DNA of 62,575 nucleotides, counting the filler, from Kipferlia bialata (taxonomy: Eukaryota): assembly GCA_003568945.1 (NCBI GenBank). It is 5 parts of 5 records of this genome, joined end to end, with 100 filler letters (N's around TTAATTAATTAA, not from the genome) between each part and the next. Parts side by side here need not be neighbours in the genome. Positions count along the whole stretch, not along the records: positions 40,202 to 54,596 come from BDIP01000822.1; 4 more parts are not named here. One strand, given 5' to 3'. This document shows positions 3,001-50,372 of this stretch, one piece after another (the first letter of the stretch is position 1; each line of letters starts with the position of its first letter). The translations under genes and the position numbers were made by a program. The notes beneath the pieces were generated by a model. That model made no database searches and had not been told where the DNA came from. It was given only the letters and a program-made list of their open reading frames with translations.

Positions 3001-4548
3001 GACAGCCTTACACTCTCGCTGACTGTATGTGATATACTGGGTGGTGTAGTGTCGGACGAGGCGTTGCCGGTCTCTGTGGCCTGGTCAGGATCAGATGGTG
3101 ATGTATCAGTCACTGCTGGTCCCTCACACTATAGTGTAGAGGTGGATGTACCCTCTGACTCTATGTTGATTGGCGACCAGTCCCTTTCTGTCACTGTTGG
3201 GGATACCCTTCTGATTAGTGACACACTAGTACTGGCAGCTAGGTCTGGTACAGCTGCTGACACCAAGGAGAGTGTATGGGTGGCCTCGGCAGCACTGGAT
3301 GTCCCTGTATCGGCTCAGACGTGTGGACGTATCTCGTATGGCTTATCTCTTCTGGACCCAGATGGAGTCCTCGTGGGATCAGACCTCTCTCAGCAGCTAT
3401 ATGCAACGTGGGGTGTATCTGAGGAAGTGGTAGAGTTTGACTCAGTGTCCAGTTTCCAAGATGGTCTCTACACTGTGGGACTGGATGTTCCTAGCTCAGC
3501 AGGCGTCCACACACTATCCACCCATCTCCGTGATCCCCTCTCCTCCACTGGAGTCAGTGTAGGAATGACTAGTCGTGACGTCAGTGTGACCAGAGCCCTC
3601 AGTGTGACCCAGAGTGGAGTGTCTGTCTCACAGTCAGCTATCCACAACGAGCCAGTCTCCGTCAGTGTCTCAGTCAAGGACGGATGCAACACCGCAATGT
3701 CCGTAGCTGCTGTTACGGTTAGTGTGACAGACCGCGCAACAGACACTGTTCTAGTTCTCGATGGTCTCTCCCAGGCCTCAGGGGTGGACGAGTATGTGAC
3801 GGACCTGTCTCTTCCCACCGGAGAGTATGATATACGAACCACCGTGACTGACGAGTCGGTGCACTTTGCAGTCATATCCCCTCTCTCTGTCACTGATCCT
3901 GTCCCATGGGCACGCATTCTACTAATCTCTTTAGGAGTGGTAGTAGTCTTCCTTGTAGGGTCGGTTCTTTCTGTTTACCGCAAGAGACTGACAACCATGC
4001 TGATGGGCAAGACGGCCACGAAGGCTAAGGGTCGTACCCTCCCGGCTCTGTCGACCAAGGATGGTGGGAAGGAGGGGGCATATGTAAGGGGAGTACTTGC
4101 TCGAAAGGGCAGGCCTCTGGGGAGTACCCTTGGTTCTCGAATCGGTACCGCTGGAAATGTGAAAGTACCATCTGGCAAGCAGCCTATCTTGCACAACGCA
4201 AGTGACACAGCTAACTCCCCAACCACTGGTGTTCCCCCTCTGTCTAAGGGTCTCTCTGCAATGCTGGATGCCCCAAGAAAGGCTGCAACACCGCCAGAGT
4301 CGTCCGGCCACAGCAAGCCATTTACGTTACCTCCCATACCTGTTAATACCTTCACCCGCAAGAGAAGTTCGCTGTCCTTAAAGGACCTTCCGGCTCCCCC
4401 TCCTGTTCTGGACTCAAGGCGCCTGTCCTTCTCCCAAGTCATGCCAAACGGCGTCAGACGACCATCTGAGCCCTTTGCTCTTCCCACATTCTCCGTTACA
4501 ATGCCTTACCTTCACTCGGAGTCGGAATCCTCAGACTCCGATTTGTGA
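1..4548 (+). CDS. Large type-I membrane/surface protein with tandem Ig-like (filamin/Big-like) beta-sandwich repeats; 5'-partial
   Basis: Frame is open from base 1 (SPSLSVKVGSTVVLSDTL resembles the internal repeat QSLSVTVGDTLLISDTL). Recurrent motifs: xxDxCG (SPEDTCG, SPRDNCG, VKDSCG, IPRDACG, VKDGCN) and TCGxxxxxxSL. S/V/T-rich beta pattern. One TM helix (ILLISLGVVVVFLVGSVLSVY, ~3916-3978) followed by RKR and a Pro/Ser-rich tail; stop at 4546-4548. Confidence 0.8.
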   Translation, partial: SPSLSVKVGSTVVLSDTLIVTQQISESLSSVVGQTLSATGFSIMVSPEDTCGTFIGGMSLTAEVHDEDGAYVASVPLVETNVMLYEGIATVSVEGVYSISVPVWGITLTGEGHASVLMAEGDDGITYSPSPTLSEPYMVVSNPVALGGSMDVGLSVVDIGGYVIPASLGVSMEWQGTVYTGSDIGWEVSSGTYSISLSAPSDPTDLGYHVLAVYLDDDSTPFISVSVGVGVSAGSQWVMASTSLVYEGSGSSPFATCGHMPFTFSLLGFDGSSLETDLSDDVSVYWSSSVSDQDATLSFENGVYSVDTIAPNEAREHSLCVAVSGVTLQESSMSIVQTVSEGNSDISSDTLSGSVFAVLFSPRDNCGTYIYDLEISGELFSMGGVSMGPVVFREMRMTYSHFASVTVPEEGLYRLSVTVEEVEFSVDCYASDRVVEVDSIPYYPSSAYTASTLTVGNTDSCIAIGGSYEVGFSLVDVTGTLVPERLDVSIVWEGVEYPESTIEWDGSQYTLTLDVPATIDDIGLHSLVVFLDGSTEPFVTVDVVAAVEAGTSWVFDTSPLLYSGSELSPYSTCGQMEFSLSLLDGDSNAVDTILEDGTVTMSWTGTGSDYPSVSVSQSGDTLTAVTLAPSEVGTHSLSLYVGAVLMQTVSVDLAQRVSSNQSSISAPAYVYTGGSFDVDVAVKDSCGVSVIGQTLSVSVVDADSVPVDTSYPVAVTDSVGSGSYTLTASGIYPEGVYSVHATVGETSWFQSLTVADIIVTSETSVTQYSVSSTHSSVEFGPTSDSVNHRGAPFTATIIIREVSGAVVTDALSVTAGFGSDDVPVVLDSDDYSTYTYSGLVPCDEGTHTFSVLVSGIPVLSVSVTPESQLSVSHSSILVVSGGLTTDPLHVVVGTPVPIYFIPRDACGAPMGADFTESSDVSIVVESEEGNSDTLSLTELSCSYTPLVEGIYTVKGVVGEESVEGLTMCANTMSVDIDGVATYVSTSTSSLDGIPSLVALGDSLTLSLTVCDILGGVVSDEALPVSVAWSGSDGDVSVTAGPSHYSVEVDVPSDSMLIGDQSLSVTVGDTLLISDTLVLAARSGTAADTKESVWVASAALDVPVSAQTCGRISYGLSLLDPDGVLVGSDLSQQLYATWGVSEEVVEFDSVSSFQDGLYTVGLDVPSSAGVHTLSTHLRDPLSSTGVSVGMTSRDVSVTRALSVTQSGVSVSQSAIHNEPVSVSVSVKDGCNTAMSVAAVTVSVTDRATDTVLVLDGLSQASGVDEYVTDLSLPTGEYDIRTTVTDESVHFAVISPLSVTDPVPWARILLISLGVVVVFLVGSVLSVYRKRLTTMLMGKTATKAKGRTLPALSTKDGGKEGAYVRGVLARKGRPLGSTLGSRIGTAGNVKVPSGKQPILHNASDTANSPTTGVPPLSKGLSAMLDAPRKAATPPESSGHSKPFTLPPIPVNTFTRKRSSLSLKDLPAPPPVLDSRRLSFSQVMPNGVRRPSEPFALPTFSVTMPYLHSESESSDSDL

Positions 4549-10141: not shown

Positions 10142-11723
10142 CTAGTGGAATGCGACTCCACTGGGTGCCCTCACCGCCAGTGTGGCAGTGGTCCCAGGCT
10201 CTGCCTCCAGAGAGACAGTATACTTGCCAGAGGGGAAGTCTCCAGTGAACTGCAGTGAGAGAAAAGAGAAATGAAGCCAGTGCCTCTGAGGAGCTATCAG
10301 TACCATTAGTCATACAAAACACACCTGGCAGTATCCGTAGTGGGACATCTTGAACCTGTAGGGCCCCTCAATGATGAGTCTGATACGCTGCCTTCCTGGA
10401 CATAAGGGTATATGCTAATATATATATACTATCTATATGACATACAGGTGAGAGAGACTAGACCAGTACCCACCTGTGTCGGTGTGACATGCAAGGCCAA
10501 ACTCCGTGTTGCCAGAACCAGACAGGAACATGGTGGCATCACGACCAGCTAGGGTGAGGAAAGAGAGGAAGTAAGAGAGAAATTCAGACTAAAGTCTCAG
10601 AGGTATAGGACCCTACCGTGTATGTGCGTGGTGGCCATGTTGTGTCCTGTCCAGTTTGTAGCGTTCCCAATGTGCATCCTGGGAGTGAGAGGCGAGTAAA
10701 TGTATACTCTCCCTATCATTCTGTATTCGTATGTACTTACTTAGTGAGTGGGTCACTGGAGGGTGCCAGGGCCATACTGGGCACAGTTGCTGTCAGGATG
10801 TAGTTCCCTGTCTGGGCCGCCCCGTGAGTACAGGGGACTAGGATGTAGGCAGTGTTGGTGGTGAGCCTGGGGGTCAGCATATACTAGACAATACAACACA
10901 AGAGAAAACCACAAAGTAGTGTCGTGTCTAGGATAAACAGAGTGACCGATACCTGACATTCTGTGTCACGCAGGGTGCGGGTATGAAGGTCGGCTCAGCA
11001 ACAGGGGGGACATCGACATCGCCATGCCTGAGAGGGTGAGGGGCATACTATGAAAATACAAAACTCATATGTACAATATTGTGTCTGTATACACCCACTC
11101 ACTTCTGTCTGACTGCGAAGAGCCTCTGCTTGGAGTGCCTTGGATTGGCCTTCAGGACATAGACCCCTATGGCATGCTGCAGCTCCTCCTTTTTGGTCTG
11201 GTACAGGGCAATGTCAACATGGACCTCTCGCATCAGATTGCTGGCTGGAATCAGTATTGAATACATATACACCAAATTCTACATGAAATAGTCTTTGGTC
11301 ATTGGAAGTATACATGAGGATATATATGTTTCAACAATGAAATGTATACACAATACACTCACATATCATGAATGTGTGCTGCGGGCTGCATGCAAAGCTG
11401 CCCCTTGCCGGACTACCCCCTGCAGTAGAGGGGTTACCACCACTGGCAGGTGCCCACATGGAGTTCTGGGTAGAGACAGTGGTGAAGTAGCTGGGTGATT
11501 GTGGGGGGGGGGGTAAAATGTTTGATTGGATATATATGGGACCAACACATTACTACTGTACGAGAACGTGTCAAAGAGTGGGTAATACCTCTTGAACGCC
11601 TTTGCCTTCAGGAGCATGTGGGATGTGTTGGAGAATGAGCGTATGCAGAACAGTCCCTCATTACCCCTGTCAAAGACTGAGGGGACAACACAGAGCCTGG
11701 TCGCTGGGCCCTTTGCGTGAGAC

Positions 11724-11762
<39 letters not shown>

Positions 11763-14358
11763 TGGTCCGTACCGGCTTGAGGATGACATCGAGAACCTGT
11801 TCCCTGGTGACTGTCCAGGACGGGGTCTTGCAGTGCAGGTGGGCCTTGTCGAAGGCCTGTACTCTGCTGCCTAGGAGTCAGACAGAGGTATTATTAGGTA
11901 TACATGAAGAGAGAGAGAGAGGGAGAGAGAGTACCTGTGTCGATGTCTGAGGGTGTCCCCTCTGGGTATGTCATGACGTGCATACCAAGTGCCATCAAGG
12001 GGCGGTTGTTGATGCGAGTGTCCTATGGGATCAGCATATACTATAAATACTGTTCGACTTTGAGTGGATACTGTAATATACACCCTGTACCTGCTGCGCC
12101 AGTGACAGCACAATGTGTCTAGTCCCGTTGGATGCACCCACTCTCAACTCAAACATAGGGGCATACATGCCAATCTGACTGAGGGGGTGAGACATCGACA
12201 CTGTAGGAATTATTTAGATGATCATAACAGTATGCATATATATACAGGAATGTCCAGTGCCTATATACCTCGAGCTAAACACCCCCGTGGCACTGTTGTC
12301 CTTCTTGGCCCACTCGCCATACTGCCTGGGGGTAAGCGTTCTCTCTCTCTAAATACACATTATTATCTCATACATACTACTTTGTATGAGTTGGAGACCA
12401 CTACTGTTATGTTCAACATACAGTAATATGAAGACCACTCACTTTCCGCTCTGCTGGAACTTGGTGGGCAGATAGCAGAAGTCCATGTTGGTGAAGACAG
12501 TCATGAGGATGTCGAGGGGCATCCACGAACAGCCTGGGATAAGAGATAATCTAATTTAAGTGAATAATCAATTACAGCACTGACCATTGTTTTACTCAGA
12601 AGAAGTATGAGATGTATACTTCCTTACCCTCGTCCTTGCGGACCTTTGCCAGCATCTTGTCCCTGTGCACTAGGGGTATGGTGCCCCAGCTTGACTTGTC
12701 AGCGGCATGGAAGGGACCACTGTACTTGGTGCTGCCTGGTGTTATAATTATACATAATAATACTATATGAGGAGAACACAAGCTAATAGACAGAAGAAGA
12801 GGGATTGAATGGCCAATGTATTGAATGACATGATATTTAGACTCACCATGGGGGTTACGGCACAGGACCATCTTGATGGGCTCTAGACTGGGGGTGAGAG
12901 AGATACATAGTAACTAATACACATGCTGAGTCGTGAATTCTATAGAGATATAGTGCTGTAGCACTCACCCCTGTCTTGGAATCTCGAACACACCCAGGAC
13001 CGAGTAGGCGTGCAGTGTTGTGATGCCATACTTTGCGGCATATGCGTTGTCCTTGTTGGCACTGCACCCCATGGCACCCGTACCCTGGAGTAAGGGAGGG
13101 GGGGGGGGGAGGGCATATTCTATAAATACTATTGTATCTAGCATATACCCAAATGAACTGTGAAAGGGAAGAAATGGATATATATGCCTTCGGTGGCATG
13201 AGTAGTATCTAGATATTGTACACCCACCCTTGAGAAGACTGCGTCCATCCTGGCCCATAGTTCCTTAGCCCCAGGAAGGGGGCCCTTAGAGGAGGGGGAG
13301 GAGGATCTGTGGTCAGAGAAGAATGATTGGACCACAACTCAATACCAGTATTATGATTGTTAGATGATAGTATCCACTCAAGAGAGAAGTATATACCGTA
13401 CCCTGACAGGGAGTGTGTGGGAGGGGGAGAGAGAGCGTTGCTGTTGGCAAGGCTGGTACTCTGCTTGGCCCTCTGCTCCTCTCTCTTGACCTCTCTCTCG
13501 GCCAGGGTGGAGAAGTGAAGGCGGAAGCCTGTGGGTGAGACACACAGATGTATATCTGTTCACAATACACCAATTAGGTCCCATGCATACCTACCCCCCC
13601 TGTCAGGTCGGTCAGGGCATCTGACGTGATACCACCTGAGAGTGAGAGGGAGGAGAGAACGCCTAGTCAAAGGAGCGTACATGCATACTAGTACATACAC
13701 ACATATATATATATACTCACCTATGATGGCTGCATATGACCCATGCAGCTTGGCATATGCCTTCTCGATGAAGGAGACCCACAGCTCACCCTGAGGTCAG
13801 GGGGGGGGGGGGCGAACATAAGGTACAATACATATATGTATGGAGTGAAGATAGTACCTTCTCAGTAGGGGGAGTGGGCGAGCAGAAGGTAAGATATTTA
13901 TATATATGTGTTTAATGGTAATAGACAGTACCTTCTCAGCTGATCTGGCGAATGCGGGCTGTCCATGGAGACAGGGCAGATAGTCATCTATCACTATGGG
14001 ACGCCAGGCCTCCTAGTGTAAGGCAAAATGTAAGCGAGTGCAATACTATGTTCAAATGTATGTATCTATAGTATGGTATACACTGCGTATCCCCACCTGC
14101 TTGTAGAACTGCAACTTGACCTCGCCCTTGATGGCATCATAGGAGACAAGGACCTTGCTGGGGGGTGAGAATGGTATGATAAAATATATATCATAAAGCC
14201 AAGTTACCTATTGGAGAGTGAGATATAGATGAGGAGGAGGAGGAGGAGGAGGAGCGGGGGAGGGGGGGGCAGTGTATGTATGAGAGAGTACCTGAGCACA
14301 TTGTCGAATGAACACACAGTGCTGACAGCAGACAGGAACCAGCAGTCACCCAGACACC
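10142..14358 (-). CDS. Calpain-family cysteine protease (CysPc + two domain III/C2-like repeats + short C-terminal beta domain); about 24 visible exons, 5'-truncated by the gap
   Basis: Catalytic motifs on separate exons: GCLGDCWFLSA (14292-14358), VIDDYLP, ELWVSFIEKAYAKLHGSY, DALTDLTGG, LHAYSVL (~13000), CRNPHG (~12850). Domain III motifs GEW..SATGC / VVPSVFDRGNEGLFCIRSFS, and again W..TAGG..SPQ / YILVPCTHGAAQTGNYIL. Stop TAG at 10142-10144. Confidence 0.93.
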
Positions 14359-25700: not shown

Positions 25701-26413
25701 GGGGGGGGGGGGGGGGGGGGGGGGGGGGGAGAGAGAGAGAGAGAGAGAGAGAGTAGAAGAGAAGAGATATTATATATAGAGATATTATATATTCGGTATG
25801 TAGCAGCTGTGCAATGAGGAGAGACAGTCTGGGTCCTCTGACAAGACACTGTCAGATGTATGTATACCCACGTACCGTAGTTGGTTCTGTCCCCATACAA
25901 TACCCCATCAACCTCACTCCCACATTGGCCTGATGAGACTGTGTAGTGCCAGGTGTTCTCGGAGTCCTGTAGTTGGACAACATGGGTAGAGAGAGATACA
26001 GAGGGGGGGAGAGAGAGCGGGCCAAGTCAAGTGCGTCAGTGATGATACCTGGAGGTGCACTGCTATGTCTGTGGCGTTGGTGAAGGAGACCACGACCTTG
26101 GACCCCGGCCAGTCAAAGGCCACCTCGTGGGTGGACTCCACATACCTGCCCACCACCTGGAAGTACTCACTGACAGGTCAGACATACATACATACATACA
26201 TGCTTACATATATATATATATATAGGGCATAATGAGTAGTAGAGTATGTGTGAGAGATAGAGACACCTGGAAGTACTCACTGACATGTCAGAGAGAGGGG
26301 GGGGGGGGGGGGATAGAGAAAGAGGGGGGTTACCTGTCGTATGGCACCATGGATGCATGTGCACACACTAATAATGCACACAGCGATGCGAGCAGCAGTA
26401 TGCCACGTGGCAT
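25701..26413 (-). CDS. Secreted carbohydrate esterase family 2 (CE2/SGNH)-like protein, N-terminal part; 3'-truncated
   Basis: Signal peptide MPRGILLLASLCALLVCAHA. Exon 2 EYFQVVGRYVESTHEVAFDWPGSKVVVSFTNATDIAVHL matches the CE2 N-terminal GR...FxWPGxxxxxxF motif. The catalytic SGNH domain is not in the window. Confidence 0.65.
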
Positions 26414-26703: not shown

Positions 26704-27585
26704 CTAGTTGACATACTTGACTGGGTAAGGCACCCTAGGCACCACCCTGCGGTACTTCTCCTTGGCGGTGTCTGTCTTGCCCACAGCTATGCAGCAGTGC
26801 ACCTTGTGGTCATCGGGGATGCCGCACTCAGCCTAAGGGTAAGAGGGAGACAGGTTGTTGTATCATATAGATATACAGTTATAACAATCACACTAAAATT
26901 TGTGTATATATGCGTCTCCCACCTTGAGGTTGGGGAACATCTCCAGACACATGGTGACCAGACCACCCCAGAAGGTGCCCAGGCCCTTAGCCACTGCGTA
27001 CAGCTCGAGGGTGGTGGCTGCTAGGATGGTGTCCTCGGCAGGGTCGTACCCCTTGTTGGCGGCATGGACAAGGACGAAGTGGGGTGCCCCGTGGAAGAGG
27101 GGGTCTGCCCCATCCTTGCCCTGGCCCTTGATCATGAAGGAGTACGGGTGGTCGGAGGGGAAGGCCTCGCCGATCTTGAGGCCCAGCTGGTGCATGAAGG
27201 CACGGCCCAGCACGGTGTACTCAACGGGACGGAAGTTGACGGCAGACGGGCAGTGCTGGGTGACGTCGAGTAGCTCAGTCAGATACTCCTCGGAGAGGGT
27301 GTCTGGAAGGAAGGACCGTACTGTGCGACGGGTCTCCACCAGGTGCCTGAAGTCATCTGCTGCGGTCTCACCCAGCTTGACCAGCCTCTGGGGGGTGGTG
27401 TCGAAGAGAGAGATGGCACCGGCGGGGCAGGCAGCAGCACAGTGGCCACAGGATATGCACCTCTCGGGGTGGACCACGACGGCCTTCTTGGCAGACACCT
27501 CAATCACACCAGCAGGGCACACGCTTGTGCAGCTGCCGCATCCAACGCAAGTATCAGCATCAATGGTGGGAACAGTAGGAGCCAT
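26704..27585 (-). CDS. Ferredoxin-nitroreductase fusion (2x[4Fe-4S] + nitroreductase), Giardia NR1/NR2-like; two exons
   Basis: CVGCGSCTSVCP and CISCGHCAAACP; RRTVRSF, PSAVNFRP, LFHGAP, GLGTFWGG. Intron ~26833-26922; exon 2 ends PYPVKYVN* at 26704-26706. Confidence 0.95.
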
Positions 27586-27637
27586 GGCTTGAGTTATCGA
27601 AAGAAAGTGGGTCGTGATTCAGCTCCATAATCAGAGC

Positions 27638-33112: not shown

Positions 33113-34635
33113 ATGCGGGTGTCAGTGCTGTTCTCCTCGTCCACTGGACATACGAGGTGAGGAATTACAGTCAGTGTCATTATCAAGACGGTTGAGTGGT
33201 CTGCTATAGATCTCTGTTCTAATAATGTCCTGGCATCGACGCTGCTGAGTACGGCAGTATCACCTACATTCGCCAATGTGTTTTATGTCCTTCCCCTCCC
33301 CCTCATCCCAGGGCAGCTGCTGAGCACGTGAGGGATGGGATGGAGACAGTGACCGGTGTCAGTGCCAGTCTCTGTAGTATGGTGCCCCTGTATAAGAGAC
33401 TGGTGGCCCACCAGGACGGGGCCTTCCCTGAGGCAGACGCCTATGTCTTTGCGGCATGGCCCATGTTCCACAGACCCCAAGCATTTGTGCAAGAGTATGC
33501 TAAGGTACATACCACTCCTTTCCCAACACAGTCTCACACTGTCCTGTGTTTGCCTGTCACTTTCATCATCCCCCTCACACAGGCATTCCCCCCAGAGCTG
33601 CTGAGGGACAAGCCCGTGGCTGTGTTCTGTACCAGCCAGGGTGCACCAGGTAGGGTGGAGTCAATCTTGGTTGTTTGATACTGATCCTGATGCCAGTTTG
33701 TTTATGGTATTTTCACACAGTCACGACCCATGCACCATTGGTCTTACCATCAGGGCGGCTATATCGTGTGATTGCGGCCCCCCTACGGAAGAAGGGTGCT
33801 CTCATTGCCAGCTATAAGGACTTTGACGTGACACCCCTAGCACCTCCCTGCATCAGTCAAGAGAGGGAGGCATCACACTCTGAAACAGCAACTGATACGA
33901 GGAAGCGCATTCCAGAGACAAAGGTAGGCAGTATCAACTCCCCCCCCCCCCCTACCAGCTAACTTCACGAATTACTACTCGATACATCAACCCCAGGCTG
34001 CGTCCATATCTGAGTGGGGTGCATCCCTTCCCGCTGCCTTCCAGCGTGCTATCGATGCCAAGAACGGAGCCAACCCCCTCCAGCTGCAGCATGAGACAGA
34101 GGCTGACCCGAGTGTGACAGGAGTGTCAGGGTGTGGAGGTGATAGTAGCCCAAGGGTGCGTGTTGGTACCAATGGCACCCCCAGGGCATGCACCCTCTCC
34201 CACCCCCTCTACCAACGGATAGTGGGGCCTGTGGTAGTGGACCCCGACCTGTGTGTTGGGTGTGGGGCATGTGCCAGTGCCTGTCCCTACGACAACATTG
34301 TGATAGAGGGGATCGCGTCTTATGACCCGGCCCACGGCAGTGGCCACCCCTGCGAGGTGAGAGCTATCCACATATGGTATTTGTAATTGTCTCTCTGTGA
34401 TAGTGCTACACCTCACCCCCAGGGCTGCATGAGCTGTGTGTCTGCGTGTCCCAACCGTGCCCTGAGTGTGTCCCCTGCCTGGGTGTGTGACACAGACACA
34501 GGCCTGCCAGTGGATGCATGTACCAGTAGCAGTGACGATGCCCATGAGGATAGGGACCCCCCCTCCGACCCCCTCGATGCCCAGTCTCTATCAGACTGGC
34601 ATGGGTCGGTGGAGCAGTGTGGGACACCCTGGTGA
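33113..34635 (+). CDS. Flavodoxin-like + 2x[4Fe-4S] ferredoxin protein (EFR1-family-like); about 6 exons
   Basis: MRVSVLFSSSTGHTR (flavodoxin SxTGNT loop), ADAYVFAAWPMF, KPVAVFCTSQG; C-terminal CVGCGACASACP and CE|GCMSCVSACP. Confidence 0.85.
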
Positions 34636-40409: not shown

Positions 40410-41502
40410 CTGTGTTCAGATGGGCACTCAGCTTCTGGGCAGTGGGTCGCATCTCAGCCCTGGGGATTAGTATTATTATTACATATACACACAGACATAT
40501 ACACATCTCAGCCCTGGGGAATAGTACTATTATTACATATACACACAGACATATACACATGTGATATGGTATATATATATATATACATATTATTATTATA
40601 TATATATATATATACATGTGATATGTCAGTGGGACGCATCTCAGCTCTGGGAGGGTAAGAGTACAGTAAGGGAAAGGGGGGTGGGGGGGGAGGTAACACA
40701 CATAGACATATACACACGTGATAGGTGTACCTTGGGTCAATTGTCTCATCGTTCACTGCGGCACTCTCGGTCTGCTCATCTGTGCCAACCTGCAGTGTCA
40801 GAGAGAGTAGGCAATAAGAGAAACAAAACTGGGAAGAGCAATAGAGGGTGGAATGGTGAGGATGAGCCTGGGAGGTGCTATATATCCAATGTCACACAAC
40901 TGCAACGATAAAAGGCAAAGAAAGTCAGCAACAGACCCAAACTCAAATACACAGCTTGCATACTTAGAATACGAGTATGTGTGGTAAACCAAATATTGCA
41001 ACACACATGCTCCCATATGCATTGACACTGCACCAAACGCACAATACCCCATATATACAAACAGAAACAAAGATATACATGCAGTGAGTACCTGCAGAGC
41101 TGGCACAAAGTATGCATTGAGGTGGTTCTCCAGTGACTCTAGGGTGCTCTTGTTAAGGACGCCAAAGTCCAGCACATGGGACATGAACCCCTCCAGACCC
41201 TCCTCACCCAGATCAGCAGGGAGAGCTATGGGCTGGTCGCTGGTGTGGATGAAGAAGACCCGCTTGGAGTCCCCATCCAGGTCTGAGTAGCCCTCCTGGC
41301 CGTGGCTGGCCATGGCCACCCCTGGGGACTGGGACACAGCATAGAACAGCACCACAGGGGCAGACAGAGAGTTCTGCAGGAAGGAAGTGAGCTGGTCATG
41401 CACCTGCGAGCTGTCAGCCTTCAGGAGACGCTCGAAAGCACTGCGTTCGAGGTTCAGCTCCAAACACACCACATCACGCAGCCACTCAATACGAGGGTCC
41501 AT
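40410..41502 (-). CDS. DNAH10: Axonemal dynein heavy chain N-terminus (inner arm I1-alpha / DNAH10-like); 3'-truncated
   Basis: MDPRIEWLRDVVCLELNL..FERLL..LTSFL...RVFFIH...LDFGVLNKSTLESLENHLNAYFVPAL resembles DHC1-alpha/DNAH10 N-termini. Further exons VGTDEQ..DPR and AEMRPTAQKLSAHLNT (40410-40459). Confidence 0.7.
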
Positions 41503-41756
41503 TCTCTAGTCACAGAATGACCCTGACCGGCGGTAGGAGTCAAGTTTGGACACTACTAACTGCCCTACGCCTACTTTTCGGTTGTGAGGCGCACTGCTTC
41601 CCGCACAGAGTCTGAACCAAAAATCTCATACCCTTTTTTCACAGCCAAGTTAAGTTAGCTGTAAAACCGAAAGGTATTATTCTATCCTTCGCTGGTTTAA
41701 CGGTTTAACTTTGAAAGTATGTTGAGCTTATGTTTTATATGGCCTGGGTTCGACTC

Positions 41757-41842: not shown

Positions 41843-42604
41843 TATTTTCTACCTTTTCACGTGAAATCAGATAATCACAGACTGGAAAGGCGCCCTGCCG
41901 GGGTATCTCTCTCACACACTTGATGGTTGTGTTTGTCTTAGATGGTTGTCTTTGCAGAGCCTGGGGAATATTTGCCATATATTCAGCTTCACAAAGTGTC
42001 TATTCACAGTGTGAATTTCACACCCCATGACGGGGTAGTAAGGGCCATTACCACATCCTCTCTGACTACATGCGGCATGCAGCCCATTCCTACACTAAGC
42101 CAGCTGTGTAAGGAACTCTTGGTCGTTGTAAGAGACATCGCCTTGGGTGGATGTGATCACCAGCAATGCTGGATAAGCATGTCCAGTAACCCCTCGGCAA
42201 CATGACCTGACATGTTCCTCAGTGTATATGATGTCTCGGATGTATCAGACCTACCCAGAATATGGCGGTAGTTTCTAGCCTTGCTCTCTATGCGGACAAG
42301 AAGCCTGGAGTCGCCGTCAATGTCCAAGTTGGACAGTCCAACGGGTCCTATGAGAACCGTCTATCTAGCTTATAGAAATTGCAGAAGGAGGTCACCTGTG
42401 GAATTATTGGAGGTGTCATTTACCTGGCTCTCCTTCTCTGTCAGAAGAGTAGCAGACGGTGCGTGGTGTCCCTGGAGTAGTAGACAGGAGGTGGAAGTGC
42501 CGTAGAATACGTACGTGGTTTGTCGATTCGTCCTCCTGCACCCTTTTCTCACAAACTTACTCACACCGATATGCTCTGGTCCATGTAGGGCTATATCTGT
42601 CACA

Positions 42605-42885
42605 ATGTCAGAGTTTGTCCTCAAGACCAGAGACGACTACATCCCCACTGACGGGAACTGTAAGAAGGTAGGTGGTCAGGGAGGATAGGAGAGAGAGTGG
42701 CTCTAGACCAATATTTGAGTCTGTCAACCATCATGTCCCCTCAACTTATCCCTCTCCCCTCCCCTCAATCTCTTCCCTCTCATCACATTCAAATAACTCT
42801 TGTGTGTAGCACCTCAGTGTGTATGGCATACTGCTCTGCAATTTGTGCTCATATATCGATTTCTGTTACCTGTATTTACCAGTGC

Positions 42886-42921
<36 letters not shown>

Positions 42922-45888
42922 CCCCCCTCCCCCTTATCGCTAGTGCGCGTCCACCAATATCCTGGGGGTCCAACGCAGGCTTTGCAGTGGGTATGAATGC
43001 TCTCTCTCTCTCTCTCTCTCTGTCTACTCTCTCTCTCTATACTCTCTCTCTATATATATATGTATACTCCCTCTCTCGCTATCTCGAAATGGATATGTAT
43101 GAGATCTATTCTTGGCAACCTGATGTCATATGTCCTCCTTTATTATTCTCTTTTTACCCTTTCCCCCTGCTTCACACTTCTTGTGTTATATACCTATTTC
43201 ATTCTCTCTTTCTGCTTCCTGGTGTTAAATACCGTGTGTCATGATTCGGGTAGTACTTATACGTATCTATACGTATTGAGATGCTATTAGTGATATATTC
43301 GTTTATTGTAGTACTTACTCTACTATACTGTCCATTTCGTTAGATACTGCGTGTCCTGCTTCCAGAACTATAATCTCTCTCTCTCTCTCTCTCTCTATCT
43401 TCTTCCGGGGTTGAAGTACTCTTAAGGCCTGGTTGACTATTTTTCTTCACTCATATTTATGTATCTATCTTACGCTAGATACTGCGTGTCCTGCTTCCAG
43501 AAGCTAGACAAGGGAGAGAGAGAGCAGGCGTGGAAGGAGGTACTTGAGTATATATAGGCATATATATATATATAGGTATATATATGAGTATATGAGGGAG
43601 GTACATCCTGGCTATGCTAGACGTATATATATGCATATATATATATAAGTATATATAGGTTTTTATAGGTATATATATGAGTGGCGTGGAGGGAGGTACA
43701 TCCTGGCTATGCTAGATGTATTAATATTCTATACTAAGCTATATTATTACTATTCTATACTGAGCTATATTATTTAGCTTACTATTATATACTAAGCTTA
43801 ATTATGTACTATTATATTTATTATTATTATACTAATGTGTAGTCTCTTATATACTATATAAGTTATATAGTATAACATAACCCTGAAAGAGCAGGCGTGG
43901 AAGGAGGTACTTGGGTATGTTAAATAGCAATACTATAAACTATTGTGTATCCCTATATATATAGTAATATTGTATGTCGCTGACCCCCAGGCCGAGCTGT
44001 CTGAGAAGGCCAAGTGGGAGGCAGACCTAGATGTATAATGAAATATATACAAAAGTATATTGTATACAATAGTTACTATAGTTCCTGACCCCCAGGCTGA
44101 GTTGGATGCATTGCTAGTATATAGTACTATATACTAATGTGACCTAACATCCAGGCCGAGCTGTCTGAGAAGGCCAAGTGGGGGGCAGAGCAGCGGGGGG
44201 TGGCAGGTACATCTATGTTCCAATATAAATACACAAATGTATATATATATATATATATTGTTATGGCGGTATGGTACCACAGTGGGAGGCAGAGCAGCGG
44301 GGGGTGGCAGGTANNNNATGGCGGTATGGTACCACAGTGGGAGGCAGAGCAGCGGGGGGTGGCAGGTACAGTGTCTATATATGTATACATATATATACTA
44401 TTATATATATGTTGTTATGGCGGTATGGTACCACAGTGGGAGGCAGAGCAGAGGGGGGTGGCAGGTACCTGTGCATATATCAGTATATATTCATTATGTA
44501 GAATATATAATATATATAGTATATATGGGTATTATTGTATGTGAGGATACTTCTGTAGGCAGAGCAGAGGGGGGTGGCAGGTACAATATATATAATAGTT
44601 ATACTTATCATAGATACCTCTATCCTCTATGGATATAAATATGTAGCTTCACACAGTATCGTCTAACCCTTCAGAGTGTGCCGCAGCATCGTCTATCCTA
44701 TATAAATATTGTGTATATATATTGTATATAATTTATAGACTAATTCTGTTGTATGTTTATCCTCTAACCCTCCAGAGTGTGCCGCGGCCATCGTCTGTCC
44801 CGTGTATATAGTATGTAGTATATATAGTATATATAGTGTATGTAGATATAATAGAATGTATATCGTCTAACCCTTCAGAGTGTGCCGCGGCCATTGCCAG
44901 CGGGGAGGTACCATTACTATACTATTATAGTATATATATATACTATACTACTATATATATATAGCTTCACAGAGTATCGTCTAACCCCTCAGAGTGTGCC
45001 GCAGCCATTGCCAGTGGGGAGGTACAGGTACGGGAAGCATATTTGTCTGTAACAGTAACTAGCGTTGTTTCTATATGCACTTTATACATGTCATTATGCT
45101 CTTTGTCCCTGTAGTAACTATGCGTTGTTTCTATATGCACTTTGTCCATGTAGTACTATTATATACTCATGTAGTCTATATTTATATATTAGTGTAATGT
45201 CTTTGTCCATGTAGTACTATTATATACTCTATTATATATTAGTGTAATGTCTTTGTACATGTAGCAGCCATTGCCAGCGGGGATGTACAGGTATGGAGGT
45301 GTATATACAGTGATACCTATCTGTAGTGATCGGTGGTATACCTCTGTCTAATGTATGTATATTATATATTTGATGCAGCCATAGCCAAGTCATATATATT
45401 ATAATATCCATATATATATACATGTTCATAGCCCCATACCCCCAGGTGACCCTCGAGAGACGGAATGGATACATACTGACCACCGATGTCAAGTGTCCAA
45501 AGGTATATATGTATATATATAGTGTATATATATAGTGTATATATATAGTGTATATATGTAGTATACATAAATACAGTGTATCTGTATATAGTATGGATCT
45601 ATATAGTGTATATATATAGTATACGGCTGATGTAAGGTGTCAAAAGGGGTACATAACTCGACTTCGAGTCTACATTCATTATATACTCCTATTGCAATCA
45701 TTCTCAATATACGGTGGTTTACTCTGTTTATCCATTGTTTCGTAGGTCACTCCCCTGTCAAAATCGTCTCTGGTCAATATCAGTCTGGCATCCTATTACT
45801 ACTCTATGATGTGGTTCTCTCTCTCTCACTCTCTCTCTATTTGTACTGAAGTTCCCGCCTCTCACTCACCCCCCCAGTGCAGCTTCTG

Positions 45889-45934
<46 letters not shown>

Positions 45935-48152
45935 GTGCAGCTTCTCCGGTGGCTGCAGTGGGTACTGCTCTGTCTGTTGGAATGGTCTATCAAAGAGGGA
46001 GAGGGAGGACGCAAACAAGAAGGTATACATGTGTATCGGTGACTATATATCTTGCACTATTCCTAGATAGTGGTCAATATATGCACTGTATGGATGTTCA
46101 CCCCAGGCCGAGGCCGGGCAGCCCCTAGGCCATGTTCAGTATATATATTATATCCAAGTATATCCATGTAGTATACATGTACCTGGTGTGCAAACATACT
46201 CAATATATATATATATATATATCAATATATATATAATGATTAATTACTCAATGTATGTATATTAACTAATTACTCTATATATGAATTATAACTAATGAAC
46301 TATGTATATACATACCCACACCCCAGGCCGAGGCCGAGCAGCCCCCCAATGTATATATACTAACTATGTACACATATTGTATACTTTGAAGTATTGTAGA
46401 TAGTATATATAGTATACATACCCACACCCCAGGCCGAGGCCGAGCAGCCCCTGAGGACACTGGCTGGGGACAGGAAGAGACAGGGTATATATATATATAT
46501 ATATATATAGGAATAATATATAAATAATAATATATATAGTATATATATACTATATATACCCTGAGGACACTGGCTGGGGACAGAAAGAGACAGGGTATGG
46601 GTATACTATACCCATATACCCATAATCTTACTAAGATAGATAGGTACCTTACTGTAACAGTAAGTTACTGTTGCATATAGTATACATACCCTCAGGACAC
46701 TGACTGGGGACAGAAAGAGACAGGGTGTGTTTGGGTATATGCATAGAGATAGATAGATACTGTACTGTACTGCGCCTACGCTCATAGCCAGTATCAGTAT
46801 CTTGATGCCGCCTCTGCCAAAGAGTCCCTTCTCTCTCTCCCTCTCCTAATATATACGTACATATACATATATACTCTTATCCCTAGACGCCACGTCCACT
46901 AAAGAGACCCCTTCTATCTCTCTCTCCCTCTTGTTGTACTGTTGCGCCTACGCTCATGGCCAGATATCGCCTCTGCCAAAGAGGCCATTCTCTTTCTCTC
47001 TTTTCTCTTTGCCTCTCTCTCAATACGCACATACACTACGCCAGCAGCCACATGTCGCCTCTGCTATTGAAGATACCGCTCTATTTATGTATATACGTGT
47101 ATCTTATACCCAGATGCCGCCTCTGCCAAGGAGGCCTCTGCCTCTGACAAGGTCACCAAGCAGTCCAGATACAGGGCACAGGTACATAGTTATATGGATA
47201 TATATATATTTATAATCATATATATGATATATATACATATAGACCCTTGTGGGGGATGATATATATATATATAGTCACTGATACTCTGTCCAGGTACAGG
47301 GCACAGGTACATAGTTATATGGATATATATACATAAATAAATATATACATTCATATATATGATATGAATGGATGTATAAGCAGTCCAGATACAGGACACA
47401 GGTACGTAGTAAAATATACATATATGTGTTGGTATATATATATGATACATATATATGTATAATGACCATTGTGGGGGATGATATATATATGTATTCACTG
47501 ATACTCTGTGTAGACACAGGGCTCAGGTACAGGGTATTGAGGCATATATACATATGATTGGGAGATATGCAAAGTGATATATCCTCATATATGATATACA
47601 CTGATGCGTTGATATTCTGTCGAGCCCTGCGTTTCCTGGAAGACTGCCTCTCTGTCCTTCTCTGACTGTCACTCACTCTCTCTCTCTCTCTCTCTCAATG
47701 TATATCAATATGCTGCTTATCTCTCTCATTGTTACTGATGAATACTAATATCTAAATGTATCTATATATCTGTGAATATCCATGTCATTATAACCCCAGG
47801 TGCTGCGCCGTCTCTCTGCCATCGGCCCTGTCACTCTGCTGGCACCCAACGACACACACCGCACAGTGCAGGGTGGGTATATGTGTATATGTATAGTACA
47901 GTACATGTGTGTGTATACAGATGCTGTTATATATATAGCCAACGACACCTTACAGTACAGGGTACTGGTGATATATAAGTTTACGAATTTGTGAATATAT
48001 GTATGTGTCACTACATACACATATATAAGGTCCCAACGGTATATGTGTCCTCTGTGTTTGTGTATCTGTATGTGTACATCACTAATGCTAGAGTGTCCAA
48101 GTCCCATGCCCATCACCTATCCTATATATACTCATCATATACATACTATCCC

Positions 48153-48188
<36 letters not shown>

Positions 48189-50273
48189 ATGCCTCATCTT
48201 AGGCTGTTCTGCAGATGTCCCATACTCCATGCCACTCTGACATCCTATATATACTCATATACATATACCATTCTATACATATACACATCACTAATGCTAG
48301 GCTGTGCTGCCAAGGTCCCATACTCCATGCCACTCTCATGTCTGCCCAAGGAGGTCATGGAGAGGTGGGAACAGTGTATATATGTACTAGTATGTCTGAC
48401 TCTCTAACCTACGGGTATGGCCACACCCTGCCCTACACGATGCCCCCTGGTACAGCATATTGTAGTATATATACCTATATGGCATATATGTATATATACA
48501 TTATTATCCTGATATGTATGTATGACCACACCCTGCACCTTGCCGCCTGGTATTGTATATAGTAGTACATGTCTATCTTACGCCCTCCCCTTTATATGTA
48601 TACATGTATATGTGTGTCTGTATACTCTCTATCCTCTAGATATGGCCACATCCTGCCCTACACCATGCCCTATATATATATACATTACTGTATCTGATAT
48701 ACAGGTATGGCCACACCCTGCCCTACACCATGCCCCCTGGTACAGTATATAGTAGTATATATATACTTATCTTATATATATAGATACCCTATATACTCTT
48801 TACCTCTAGGTATGGCCACACTCTGCCCCACACCATGCCCCCTGGGGTGGAGGTCAGGGCATGTGGGTGAGGGAGGAAGGAGGTATGTTGTTGTGTATAT
48901 TAATGTGTAATAACTACTTTATATGTGTTGGATATGCCTAGATTAGGGCAAGTGGGTGGGGGAGGAAGGGGGTGCGTGTACACGTCACTACTTCCACTAA
49001 TCAGTACACCTATAGTGGTGTGCTTCATTGTCAGTCCTTATCATATATACATATATACATATATATATACATGTATATCTCCATATGGGTAAACCAACAC
49101 ATTGTATATGTATTGACACCAGTCCCCCCCTGCCCCCAGAGTGTGGATACTGTCATCAGTCACAGGGCACTGGGGGCAGCAAAGGTATGGGTATATATAG
49201 ACATATATATATATATATATAGTGTGGATACTGCCATCAGTCAGAGGGCACTGGGGGCAGCAAAGGTATTGTTAGCGCATATATTTATACATATAGTATG
49301 TATGTATATAGTATGTACATATATAGTATATATATGTCAGTGAGATGGCACTGGGGGCAGCAAAGGTATTGATAGTGGATAGCGGATATAAATGCACATG
49401 TATGTATGCACTGAAAAGTATGTCCCTCACCCCTAGTCCGTCTTCGATATATATATATATATTTATGTCCTCATTTCCAGTCCCTCTTCGATGCCGCAGC
49501 AGGTGCGACCTTTGAGACAGAGAGCAGTGAGAGGTGTGACATACATATATACACTATGTATACACTATATATATATGTGAGAGGTATATACACTATATTT
49601 ATATATGCGAGGCCACCTTTGAGACAGAGAGCAGTGATAGGTGGGAGTATAGTGCAAAGATACATACATATAGTATACTAGAGGTATGGTAATCAAATCA
49701 TGGAGTGTATGAAGTATGGAGTATAGATGCACATGTTAGTATATTGTATATATGTGTATATACAGATGGATACAGCATACTCATTTTCTGCACTTACCCT
49801 CACAGCTGCACTGCGTGGTTCATATATTCTATACTTTCGTATTCTTCTATATTTATACGTATATATACGGTAAATACATGTCTCTATTAACCCAGCTACA
49901 CTGCGTGGTTCATCCCCTCTGTATACTCTATATGTATGGGTATATATATATATATATATTCATTGTCTCTATCAATCCCAGCTACACTGCGTGGTTCATC
50001 CCCTCTGACCTGACTGATGATGAGTGCCCGGTGGTGCTGTCAGAGACACTCATGCCCAAGGTATACATGTATATGTGTATAGAGTATACATAGGGTATGA
50101 TACTATTGAATGATACGGTATGCCCAAGGTACGGTGGACACGGTCAGTAGTGTGTTAGTGTATGCATGACCCACTATGTGTGTTTTCAATTGTACATCAG
50201 ACTATATCCCCCCCCCCCCCCTAACACCCTTCTAACCCCAGGTTAGCCTAGGCTGTGGGTCAGACAGTGACAG
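42605..50273 (+). CDS. Multi-exon protein with two tandem Cys-rich (A20-like) zinc-finger modules; 3' end uncertain
   Basis: Phase-consistent reconstruction: MSEFVLKTRDDYIPTDGNCKK|CASTNILGVQRRLCSG|YCVSCFQKLDKGEREQAWKE|AELSEKAKWGAEQRGVAE|CAAAIASGEVQ|VTLERRNGYILTTDVKCPK|CSFSGGCSGYCSVCWNGLSKREREDANKK|AEAEQPLRTLAGDRKRQD|AASAKEA..RYRAQ|VLRRLSAIGP..|GCAAKVPYSMPL..|YGHTLP..|SVDTVISHRALGAAK|SLFDAAAG..|YTAWFIPSDL..LMPK. Confidence 0.7.
43341..50135 (+). repeat. Intronic partial exon copies ('exon echoes') throughout the zinc-finger gene
   Basis: Examples: TAGATACTGCGTGTCCTGCTTCCAGAA at 43341 and 43476; GCAGAGCAG(C/A)GGGGGGTGGCAGGTA five times 44185-44583; CTAACCC..CAGAGTGTGCCGC four times 44663-45002; TATG(G/A)CCACA..CTGC five times 48417-48826. 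Confidence 0.95.
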
Positions 50274-50372
50274 GTGGGGAAGGAATCTATCCATACTCTC
50301 TCTCTCTCTCTCTCTCTCTCTCAATCTCTCTCTCTCTAGCCCCCTGTTACTCACAAACAGTTTGCATTCTAG

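What the first reader, a model, noticed from the sequence alone, without database searches (positions are those of the whole stretch)
43341..50135. 'Exon echo' gene architecture: polarised partial exon copies stacked in the flanking introns
Seen: most short exons of the 42605-50273 gene are flanked by 1-5 partial copies separated by TA-rich DNA. Upstream copies are branch point + AG + 5' part of the exon (3'-truncated); downstream copies are 3' part + GT (5'-truncated). Exon order stays collinear. Many differences are silent: GCC GAG CTG vs GCT GAG TTG (44155 vs 44095), CGG/AGG, GCA/GCG, AGT/AGC, AGG/AGA, CTG/CTC, AAG/AAA, ACT/ACC. Inference: neutral decay after simple slippage would not favour silent sites. 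Candidate mechanisms: (i) single-crossover integration of small DNA circles or fragments from diverged alleles or paralogues, displacing the old exon end; (ii) ongoing recombination or gene conversion between copies that rebuilds the exon; (iii) programmed deletion between direct repeats, like ciliate pointers. I know of no description of this as a system.
Basis: partly seen in the sequence, partly recalled or inferred. Interest (0 to 1): 0.93.

Follow-up and report, generated by a model that had tools for sequence, protein, structure and literature searches.

The report
Splice-junction 'mirage' stacks in a protist
In two genes of the free-living protist Kipferlia bialata most exons are flanked by stacks of decaying partial copies of their own splice junctions, a kind of repeat known from lancelets as 'mirages', likely made by small local DNA duplications and likely harmless.

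Summary
The architecture is real. The window is Kipferlia bialata; the gene is KIPB_004021. A second gene, KIPB_004043, is built the same way. Together they hold 65 echoes on 23 of 34 exons, 64 of 65 with the stated polarity, about 110 nt apart. On 42400-44313, DNA contigs carry echoes at single-copy depth and one RNA contig skips them.

The exotic reading is not needed. Silent bias is real, but pN/pS is 0.53-0.54, the floor expected when a dead copy is compared with a still-selected exon. Splice signals decay at the neutral rate. In gene A the echoes keep ancestral residues shared with paralogues, including a tryptophan where the exon now has a stop.

The pattern matches amphioxus 'mirages' (PMC3087553). 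This scan had already seen them in sea-urchin genes; my paper searches found no protist case. Best model: tandem duplications across splice sites, amplified by unequal exchange; polarity follows from geometry.

Still open: the peaked unit size, and exon cores better kept than their spacers.

The parts
42605..50665 (+). Gene A, KIPB_004021: 17 exons (42605-42667, 42944-42990, 43479-43539, 44155-44206, 44993-45027, 45446-45502, 45936-46022, 46433-46484, 47114-47181, 47800-47872, 48301-48364, 48810-48862, 49123-49184, 49481-49533, 49982-50060, 50242-50273, 50599-50665). Hypothetical Cys-motif protein, no Pfam family; likely a decaying paralogue.
   Evidence: Exact spliced mapping of P0001; Pfam blank; joins of exons 1-5 in RNA contig; family alignment
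43335..43367 (+). Upstream echo of exon 3 (AG + first 24 nt, 0 mismatches)
43683..43913 (+). Two downstream echoes of exon 3 (43683-43699, 43885-43913); a 95-nt tandem unit lies at 43549-43721
43980..44104 (+). Upstream echoes of exon 4: 43980-44025 (annotated as an in-frame exon 43991-44032, skipped by the RNA contig) and a 9-nt copy at 44096
44281..44585 (+). Four downstream echoes of exon 4; three share one junction; they and the upstream echo keep GAG (Glu) where the exon has GGG; 4-N gap at 44314-44317
44661..44911 (+). Three upstream echoes of exon 5 (114, 217, 318 nt from the exon); the 44879 copy is complete to an alternative donor but is not the one in the RNA contig
45264..45296 (+). 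Downstream echo of exon 5
46099..46726 (+). Exon 8 with two upstream (46099-46132, 46313-46345) and two downstream echoes (46559-46598, 46689-46726)
46804..47531 (+). Exon 9 with three upstream and three downstream echoes
47939..47963 (+). Weak downstream echo of exon 10 (below threshold) carrying the paralogue's Leu where the exon has Arg
48078..48238 (+). Two upstream echoes of exon 11
48400..48740 (+). Four upstream echoes of exon 12; three keep the paralogues' Tyr; the same echo and junction appear, read in another frame, in paralogue protein P0009
48868..48870 (+). In-frame TGA in exon 12 where both paralogues and the downstream echo (48940-48973) have Trp; the annotation avoids it with an earlier donor
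49221..49369 (+). Two downstream echoes of exon 13; one codon reads Glu (far echo and paralogues), Gln (near echo), His (exon)
49612..49921 (+). Downstream echo of exon 14 (49612-49646) and two upstream echoes of exon 15 (49800-49823, 49883-49921)
55254..62518 (-). Gene B, KIPB_004043 (402 aa, no Pfam family, no paralogue found): 17 exons in the window, 13 with echoes, 31 echoes; holds the clearest whole tandem units (156 nt at 58913-59225, 132 nt at 59309-59599)
40450..40557 (-). Young 54-nt tandem duplication across a 3' splice site of a third gene (2 mismatches; ATG shared at both breakpoints); an older echo lies at about 40620-40650

Best explanation
These are mirage-type repeats: direct copies of exon-intron junctions, likely seeded by short tandem duplications with one break in an exon and one in the next intron, likely multiplied by unequal exchange between exon and copy, and likely left to decay because splicing uses the intact exon. 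Polarity follows from geometry: duplicating [intron tail + exon head] leaves a headless-tail copy upstream of an intact exon, and duplicating [exon tail + intron head] leaves one downstream; other duplications would break the protein and be purged (inferred). Shown: copies, polarity, whole tandem units in a minority, shared breakpoints, skipping in one RNA contig, neutral-level decay, ancestral residues in echoes. Inferred: microhomology-mediated seeding, favoured by TA-rich introns and by the reported lack of Ku-dependent end joining in metamonads; amplification by unequal exchange or conversion.
For: Polarity 64 of 65 and collinearity 9 of 9. Whole units with the intron spacer copied: TRF periods 54-156 nt; spacer homology at p<=0.05 for 9 of 65 echoes. 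One clean young unit with 3-nt microhomology. Shared breakpoints in 10 of 20 arrays against 5.2 expected, p=0.01. pN/pS 0.53-0.54 and 54 of 150 variants silent, between the neutral 23-28% and the ceiling 38-43%; amino-acid changes no more conservative than the two-lineage null, combined p=0.39 over 13 echoes. Three stop variants, and gaps in 8 of 65 echoes. AG/GT kept in 48 of 56, expected 47-51. Farther echo more diverged in 26 of 37 untied pairs, p=0.02. Echoes carry the paralogue residue at 4 of 4 sites where both paralogues agree against gene A; at 8 other covered sites they follow gene A at 6, a paralogue at 1, neither at 1. Intron length rises about 84 nt per echo, rho 0.80. Repeat density tracks TATA density, rho 0.68. 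Mirages described with the same layout. Metamonads lack Ku and DNA-PKcs (PMC8516963 passages).
Against: Most spacers cannot be shown to be copies of the flank: only 3 of 34 outermost echoes reach p<=0.05. In five clear units spacers differ at 80 of 454 sites but exon cores at 2 of 110; local GC does not explain this (45/249 vs 43/265, p=0.64). Caveats: core ends are set by the match itself, and my aligner gives about 18% mismatch over half the length even for unrelated spacers; the two firmest units give 27/215 vs 1/58, p=0.013. Per array, nearest-versus-farthest order is not significant (13 vs 5, p=0.10). Microhomology rests on one junction. The peak at 110 nt is not explained. The TATA correlation is partly circular, since echoes lengthen TA-rich introns. 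Only two dense genes were analysed.
Confidence: 0.72

Rival explanations
1. Exon displacement from a diverged partner: unequal exchange or integration brings in an exon with its flank from a diverged allele or paralogue, so the echo is the former working exon end.
For: Exon cores are better kept than spacers, as expected if the core stayed under selection until the exchange. In 11 of 20 arrays the flank most like the exon's is not the nearest. Some old echoes read like protein homologues, e.g. the membrane-helix echo at 56649-56574. Gene A has paralogues; the genome is reported diploid.
Against: pN/pS is not below 0.5 in any subset (0.44-0.67, none significant); BLOSUM test null. No paralogue of gene B was found (word-limited search). 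Gene A echoes follow its own lineage, with a stepwise Glu-Gln-His series. No variant letters in DNA contigs on 42400-44313. Nothing points to circles.
Confidence: 0.15
2. The echoes work in splicing: as cassette or alternative exons, or as stepping stones that let a short-intron spliceosome remove long introns from the inside out.
For: The annotation uses echo 43991-44032 as an in-frame exon and P0004 shows a repeated exon tail. Several echoes have both AG and GT with frame-keeping lengths. Spacers (median 82 nt) and central cores (median 102 nt) are near ordinary intron size, 86 nt in a predicted calpain-like gene.
Against: The one RNA contig skips the echoes of exons 3-5. Splice dinucleotides decay at the neutral rate. 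AG excess at free ends falls from p=0.005 to p=0.08 when arrays are counted once. Stops and gaps occur.
Confidence: 0.07
3. Assembly artefact: alleles or repeats stitched in tandem by a short-read assembler.
For: Short-read diploid assembly; two identical copies flank a 4-N gap at 44314-44317; most of the gene was not covered by the read check.
Against: Contigs span echoes at single-copy depth and shared words double in depth; copies differ by up to 35% and come in arrays of up to four per side; a paralogue shows the same echo junction.
Confidence: 0.04
4. Programmed DNA deletion between direct repeats, like ciliate pointers.
For: Direct repeats of 10-75 nt are present.
Against: No DNA joints (contigs drop rare forms); splicing already removes the echoes; repeats are degenerate; a germ-soma split in this flagellate is not known to me (recalled).
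Confidence: 0.02

Closest known systems
Amphioxus 'mirages' (globins BflGb6/BflGb9, Adh3, TnC, PGBD5; PMC3087553 passages; PMC3902484 passage)
   Same: Direct tandem copies of [intron end + exon head] or of the exon's 3' boundary; both boundaries affected; many but not all keep AG/GT; mRNA spliced normally; units of 60-160 nt; unequal crossing-over proposed.
   Different: Here on 23 of 34 exons of two genes, often on both sides, rather than at one or a few junctions; more decayed, with most spacers no longer alignable; in a metamonad protist; length polymorphism not tested.
Human F7 intron-7 37-bp VNTR (PMC1557585 abstract)
   Same: First unit spans the exon-intron boundary and gives a stack of silent pseudo-donors; the donor next to the exon is used.
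   Different: One homogeneous short minisatellite at one junction, 5' splice site only.
Potato RdRp duplication across an intron-exon boundary (PMC4974935 passages); internal gene duplication, Gao and Lynch 2009 (seen only as cited there)
   Same: Same seed event: intron 3' end plus exon 5' part duplicated in tandem.
   Different: There the upstream copy gained a donor and made a new intron; here no such gain is shown, apart from the annotated but RNA-skipped exon 43991-44032.
Duplicated and partial exons of Drosophila Y-linked genes (PMC8794474 and PMC12758392 passages)
   Same: Dead exon copies beside working ones in simple-repeat-rich introns; microhomology-mediated repair proposed.
   Different: Very large introns, whole or inverted exon blocks; no 110-nt polarised stacks described in the passages seen.
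Repair-mediated duplications in vertebrates (PMC2671141 abstract)
   Same: Closely linked copies up to 619 bp, some with exons and splice sites.
   Different: Scattered single events, not arrays at most exons.

Membership tests
Mirage repeats | Direct repeats that span an exon-intron boundary and lie in the adjacent intron | tested here: met
   65 echoes, 64 polarised, 1 of 1024 controls
Mirage repeats | Both 5' and 3' boundaries are duplicated | tested here: met
   38 upstream and 27 downstream echoes
Mirage repeats | Many but not all copies keep AG/GT | tested here: met
   58 of 65 with flank-aided search; 48 of 56 with exon-only search
Mirage repeats | Normal mRNA splicing ignores the copies | tested here: met
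   One RNA contig joins exons 1-5 and skips echoes; exons 6-17 and rare isoforms untested
Mirage repeats | Minisatellite-like head-to-tail units alignable over their whole length (81-100% in BflGb6) | tested here: inconclusive
   Clear in some arrays; spacer homology significant for only 9 of 65; spacing regular, median 110 nt
Mirage repeats | Length instability between haplotypes or cells | not testable with these tools
   Only contigs of one sample; no raw or long reads
Mirage repeats | Concerted evolution within clusters, outer units excluded | tested here: inconclusive
   16 variants shared between echoes, shared breakpoints; spacer homology in 6 of 31 inner vs 3 of 34 outer units
Mutually exclusive or tandem duplicated exons | Whole exon copies with both splice sites, kept under purifying selection | tested here: not met
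   Median 42% of exon copied; pN/pS at the dead-copy floor; stops and gaps
Ciliate pointer-guided DNA elimination | DNA form lacking the sequence between the repeats | tested here: not met
   No DNA joints on 42400-44313; rare forms not excluded
Introner-type elements | One repeated intron sequence shared across loci | tested here: not met
   Window self-BLAST finds local repeats and simple-sequence hits only; whole genome not available

The most novel reading that the evidence does not exclude
K. bialata renews exon ends by a recombination ratchet: exchange with a diverged allele installs a new exon end together with an intron-sized spacer and pushes the old working end into the intron, so that introns of affected genes grow in 110-nt steps and hold a time-ordered archive of former exon versions.
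Probability: 0.13. Interest if true: 0.8.

Novelty: new variant of a known kind. Interest (0 to 1): 0.43.

Why it matters
The kind of repeat is known, but the cases I found in print are animal genes with one or a few affected junctions. Here it covers two thirds of the exons of two genes in a metamonad with a reduced spliceosome (87 of 174 proteins, PMC6679479 passages). That makes three things testable: how a short-intron spliceosome picks the true site among stacks of decoys, whether such stacks feed intron gain, and how the loss of classical end joining shapes intron growth. The echoes also preserve earlier states of an exon, and they mislead gene prediction: at least one echo is annotated as an exon.

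Tried and rejected
No whole genome is held, so no genome-wide scan. The run search listed no RNA holder on record; X2 is a guessed RNA run, used because its contig shows a GT..AG joint. Metagenome scan with P0001: 276 pattern matches, no relative. Pfam: nothing above cut-off for either gene. Search of earlier notes in this genome: none; 'mirage exon echo Kipferlia protist': none. Silent excess beyond the dead-copy null: not found in any subset. Conservative amino-acid excess: not significant. Selection to keep AG/GT: not found. GT near upstream free ends: not enriched, 16 of 38 vs 20.3 expected. TA-rich hypermutability as the cause of spacer divergence: not supported by GC bins in six units. 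My first guess at the exon 11 donor (48373) differs from the annotation (48364) and was dropped. My guess that 40798-41505 is dynein-like had no Pfam support. Gao and Lynch 2009 is not held; one search opened an unrelated paper. The script stopped at its 14th unit; 13 were printed, and its B-exon-11 core count is misaligned and unused. The calpain-like gene model is my own unverified prediction.
Full report
Setting. The window joins five contigs with N spacers. In-frame window stretches matched KIPB_004021 (gene A, the finding) and KIPB_004043 (gene B, minus strand) of Kipferlia bialata. Both proteins map to one exact GT-AG path. Neither has a Pfam family above cut-off. The genome paper (PMC5874029; parts 1-3 of 6 read) reports a short-read diploid assembly with 124,912 introns; a word search of its main text finds no 'duplicat' or 'tandem'. 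Its supplements were not seen.

Observation. Exon-only local alignment scores >=24 in 33 of 64 adjacent exon-intron pairs and 25 of 1024 others. With splice flanks, 65 echoes pass a threshold reached by 1 of 1024 controls: 34 in gene A, 31 in gene B, on 23 of 34 exons. For this I dropped the annotated exon 43991-44032, which counts as an echo, and extended exon 12 to the paralogues' donor. Upstream echoes begin at the exon start and downstream ones end at the exon end in 64 of 65. Order is collinear in 9 of 9 introns with both kinds. Spacing is peaked: median 110 nt, quartiles 99-129; the exon part is 27 nt and the spacer 82 nt at the median. Density is uneven: 4.7-5.3 repeats per kb on two contigs, 0-0.35 on three. 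A predicted calpain-like gene has median 86-nt introns and 1 of 22 exons over threshold, that one a CT-repeat hit.

Reality check. Reads were laid on 42400-44313 only. DNA contigs cross two echoes and the exon 4 start at depth 434 against 440-468 in flanks; words shared by copies stand at 900 and 985; no other letters, no DNA joints. Alleles stitched in tandem would give half depth. One 349-nt contig of a likely RNA run joins exon 1 to 3 with 46 letters between (exon 2 is 47 nt) and exon 3 to 4 across GT..AG, and goes on with the 44993 version of exon 5. So this transcript skips the echoes, including the one annotated as an exon. Contigs drop rare forms, and the rest of the gene is unchecked.

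The silent-site argument. After a duplication, silent sites change on both lineages and replacement sites mostly on the dead one, so pN/pS of 0.5 or more is the null (reasoning, not a tool result). Of 150 distinct variants 54 are silent, above the neutral 23-28% and below the 38-43% ceiling. The 4-fold/0-fold ratio is 1.7: above 1 (p=0.008), not above 2. pN/pS is 0.54 for the 34 nearest and 0.53 for the 31 more distal echoes; subsets range 0.44-0.67, none below 0.5 significantly. Variants shared by several echoes are silent in 9 of 16, private ones in 27 of 79 (difference p=0.16). Some old echoes look protein-like, but 13 tested are no more conservative than the null (p=0.39). Three stops occur and 8 of 65 echoes have gaps. 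AG/GT survive in 48 of 56, as neutral decay predicts.

Echoes as fossils. A search of 1.84 billion representatives found three K. bialata paralogue fragments of gene A and eight distant relatives. At the 4 covered sites where two paralogues agree against gene A, echoes carry the paralogue residue; one codon steps from Glu (far echo) through Gln (near echo) to His (exon). At 8 other covered sites echoes follow gene A at 6, a paralogue at 1, neither at 1. This fits frozen ancestral states better than import. The start of paralogue P0009 is the other-frame reading of the exon 12 echo with its junction, so that echo is likely older than the gene duplication. Gene A has a stop in exon 12, an exon 13 one base shorter than the paralogues' 21 codons, and no match to the family C-terminus: likely a decaying, still transcribed copy. 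The short paralogue contigs could include an allele. Gene B returned only itself.

Mechanism. A tandem duplication with one break in the exon and one in the intron always leaves one intact exon and gives the observed polarity (inference). A 54-nt unit at 40450-40557 shows the seed: two mismatches and ATG at both breakpoints. Whole units with copied spacers occur in both genes. Ten of 20 arrays reuse a breakpoint (5.2 expected), which points to one seed then amplification by unequal exchange. Metamonads lack Ku and DNA-PKcs and fornicates lack Rad51A (PMC8516963 passages), which would favour microhomology-based repair; the status of alternative end joining in K. bialata itself was not seen. Introns of genes A and B have 60-66 TATA per kb against 25 in the calpain-like gene.

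Results against this model. Spacer homology is significant for 9 of 65 echoes and 3 of 34 outermost ones. In five clear units, chosen by eye from 13 printed, spacers differ at 80 of 454 sites and cores at 2 of 110; GC content does not account for it. In 11 of 20 arrays the most exon-like flank is not the nearest. Conversion centred on the exon core, or exchange between diverged alleles, would explain this; I cannot separate them. The 110-nt peak, close to an ordinary intron plus an exon head, is unexplained; truncation by selection of a broader size range is a guess.

Comparison. PMC3087553 (passages) describes tandem copies of intron end plus exon head, or of the exon's 3' boundary, 150-160 bp in globins and 10-72 bp in Adh3, many with AG/GT, not disturbing splicing, unstable in length. 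PMC3902484 (passage) adds PGBD5 and TnC. The original Adh3 paper was not seen. The F7 VNTR (abstract) and the potato RdRp case (passages) are the same geometry. Four mirage features are met, two are inconclusive, one is untestable. Searches for 'mirage amphioxus minisatellite' (2 papers), 'mirages intron exon tandem' (10), 'Kipferlia duplication exon' (13), 'Kipferlia bialata intron' (29, 20 listed) and partial-exon phrases (18) showed no protist case; most were seen as listings only and subscription journals are not covered.

Verdict. Observation confirmed; the special mechanism is not needed; a dense, decayed, gene-wide variant of mirage repeats in a distant lineage. Interest 0.43.

Noticed in passing
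window 55254-62518 (-): Second gene (KIPB_004043) with the same architecture, 31 echoes; its annotation starts beyond the window edge.
   Followed up: yes
window 48810-49184 (+) and 50274-50665: Gene A carries a stop, a one-base-short exon 13 and a non-homologous tail relative to its paralogues; the published model steps round the stop with an earlier donor.
   Followed up: partly
proteins P0004, P0009 (other K. bialata contigs): Their annotations seem to include echoes: a repeated exon tail in P0004, an echo read out of frame at the start of P0009.
   Followed up: partly
window 42605-46022 (+): Gene A has two copies of a Cys motif (C-x2-C...CSGYC-x2-C) shared with eight unnamed eukaryote-like proteins of no Pfam family.
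   Followed up: partly
window 26151-26296 (-) and 13849-13942 (-): Single echoes in otherwise echo-poor genes: an upstream one 110 nt from its exon, a downstream one 74 nt from its exon.
   Followed up: partly
window 53255-53904: A 490-nt direct duplication with nested GC-rich short repeats between the copies; no gene model made.
   Followed up: no
window 51403-52968 (-): Intron-free 521-aa frame with weak kinase/phosphotransferase hits (E 0.004-0.006), just past the point where gene A leaves its family alignment; possibly mobile.
   Followed up: no
window 26893-27618 (-): Ferredoxin-nitroreductase fusion of bacterial type (Pfam); a second ferredoxin-like frame lies at 33928-34386.
   Followed up: no
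window 1-4548 (+): Intron-free frame of over 1500 aa with Ig/filamin-like repeats (weak Pfam hit) and a membrane-like segment, unusual in this intron-rich genome.
   Followed up: no
window 10181-14207 (-): Predicted calpain-like gene (motifs recalled, no family search) with 21 short introns, used as the echo-poor control.
   Followed up: partly
window 45021/45027 (+): Two in-frame donors 6 nt apart at the end of exon 5; the 44879 echo ends at the first one.
   Followed up: no
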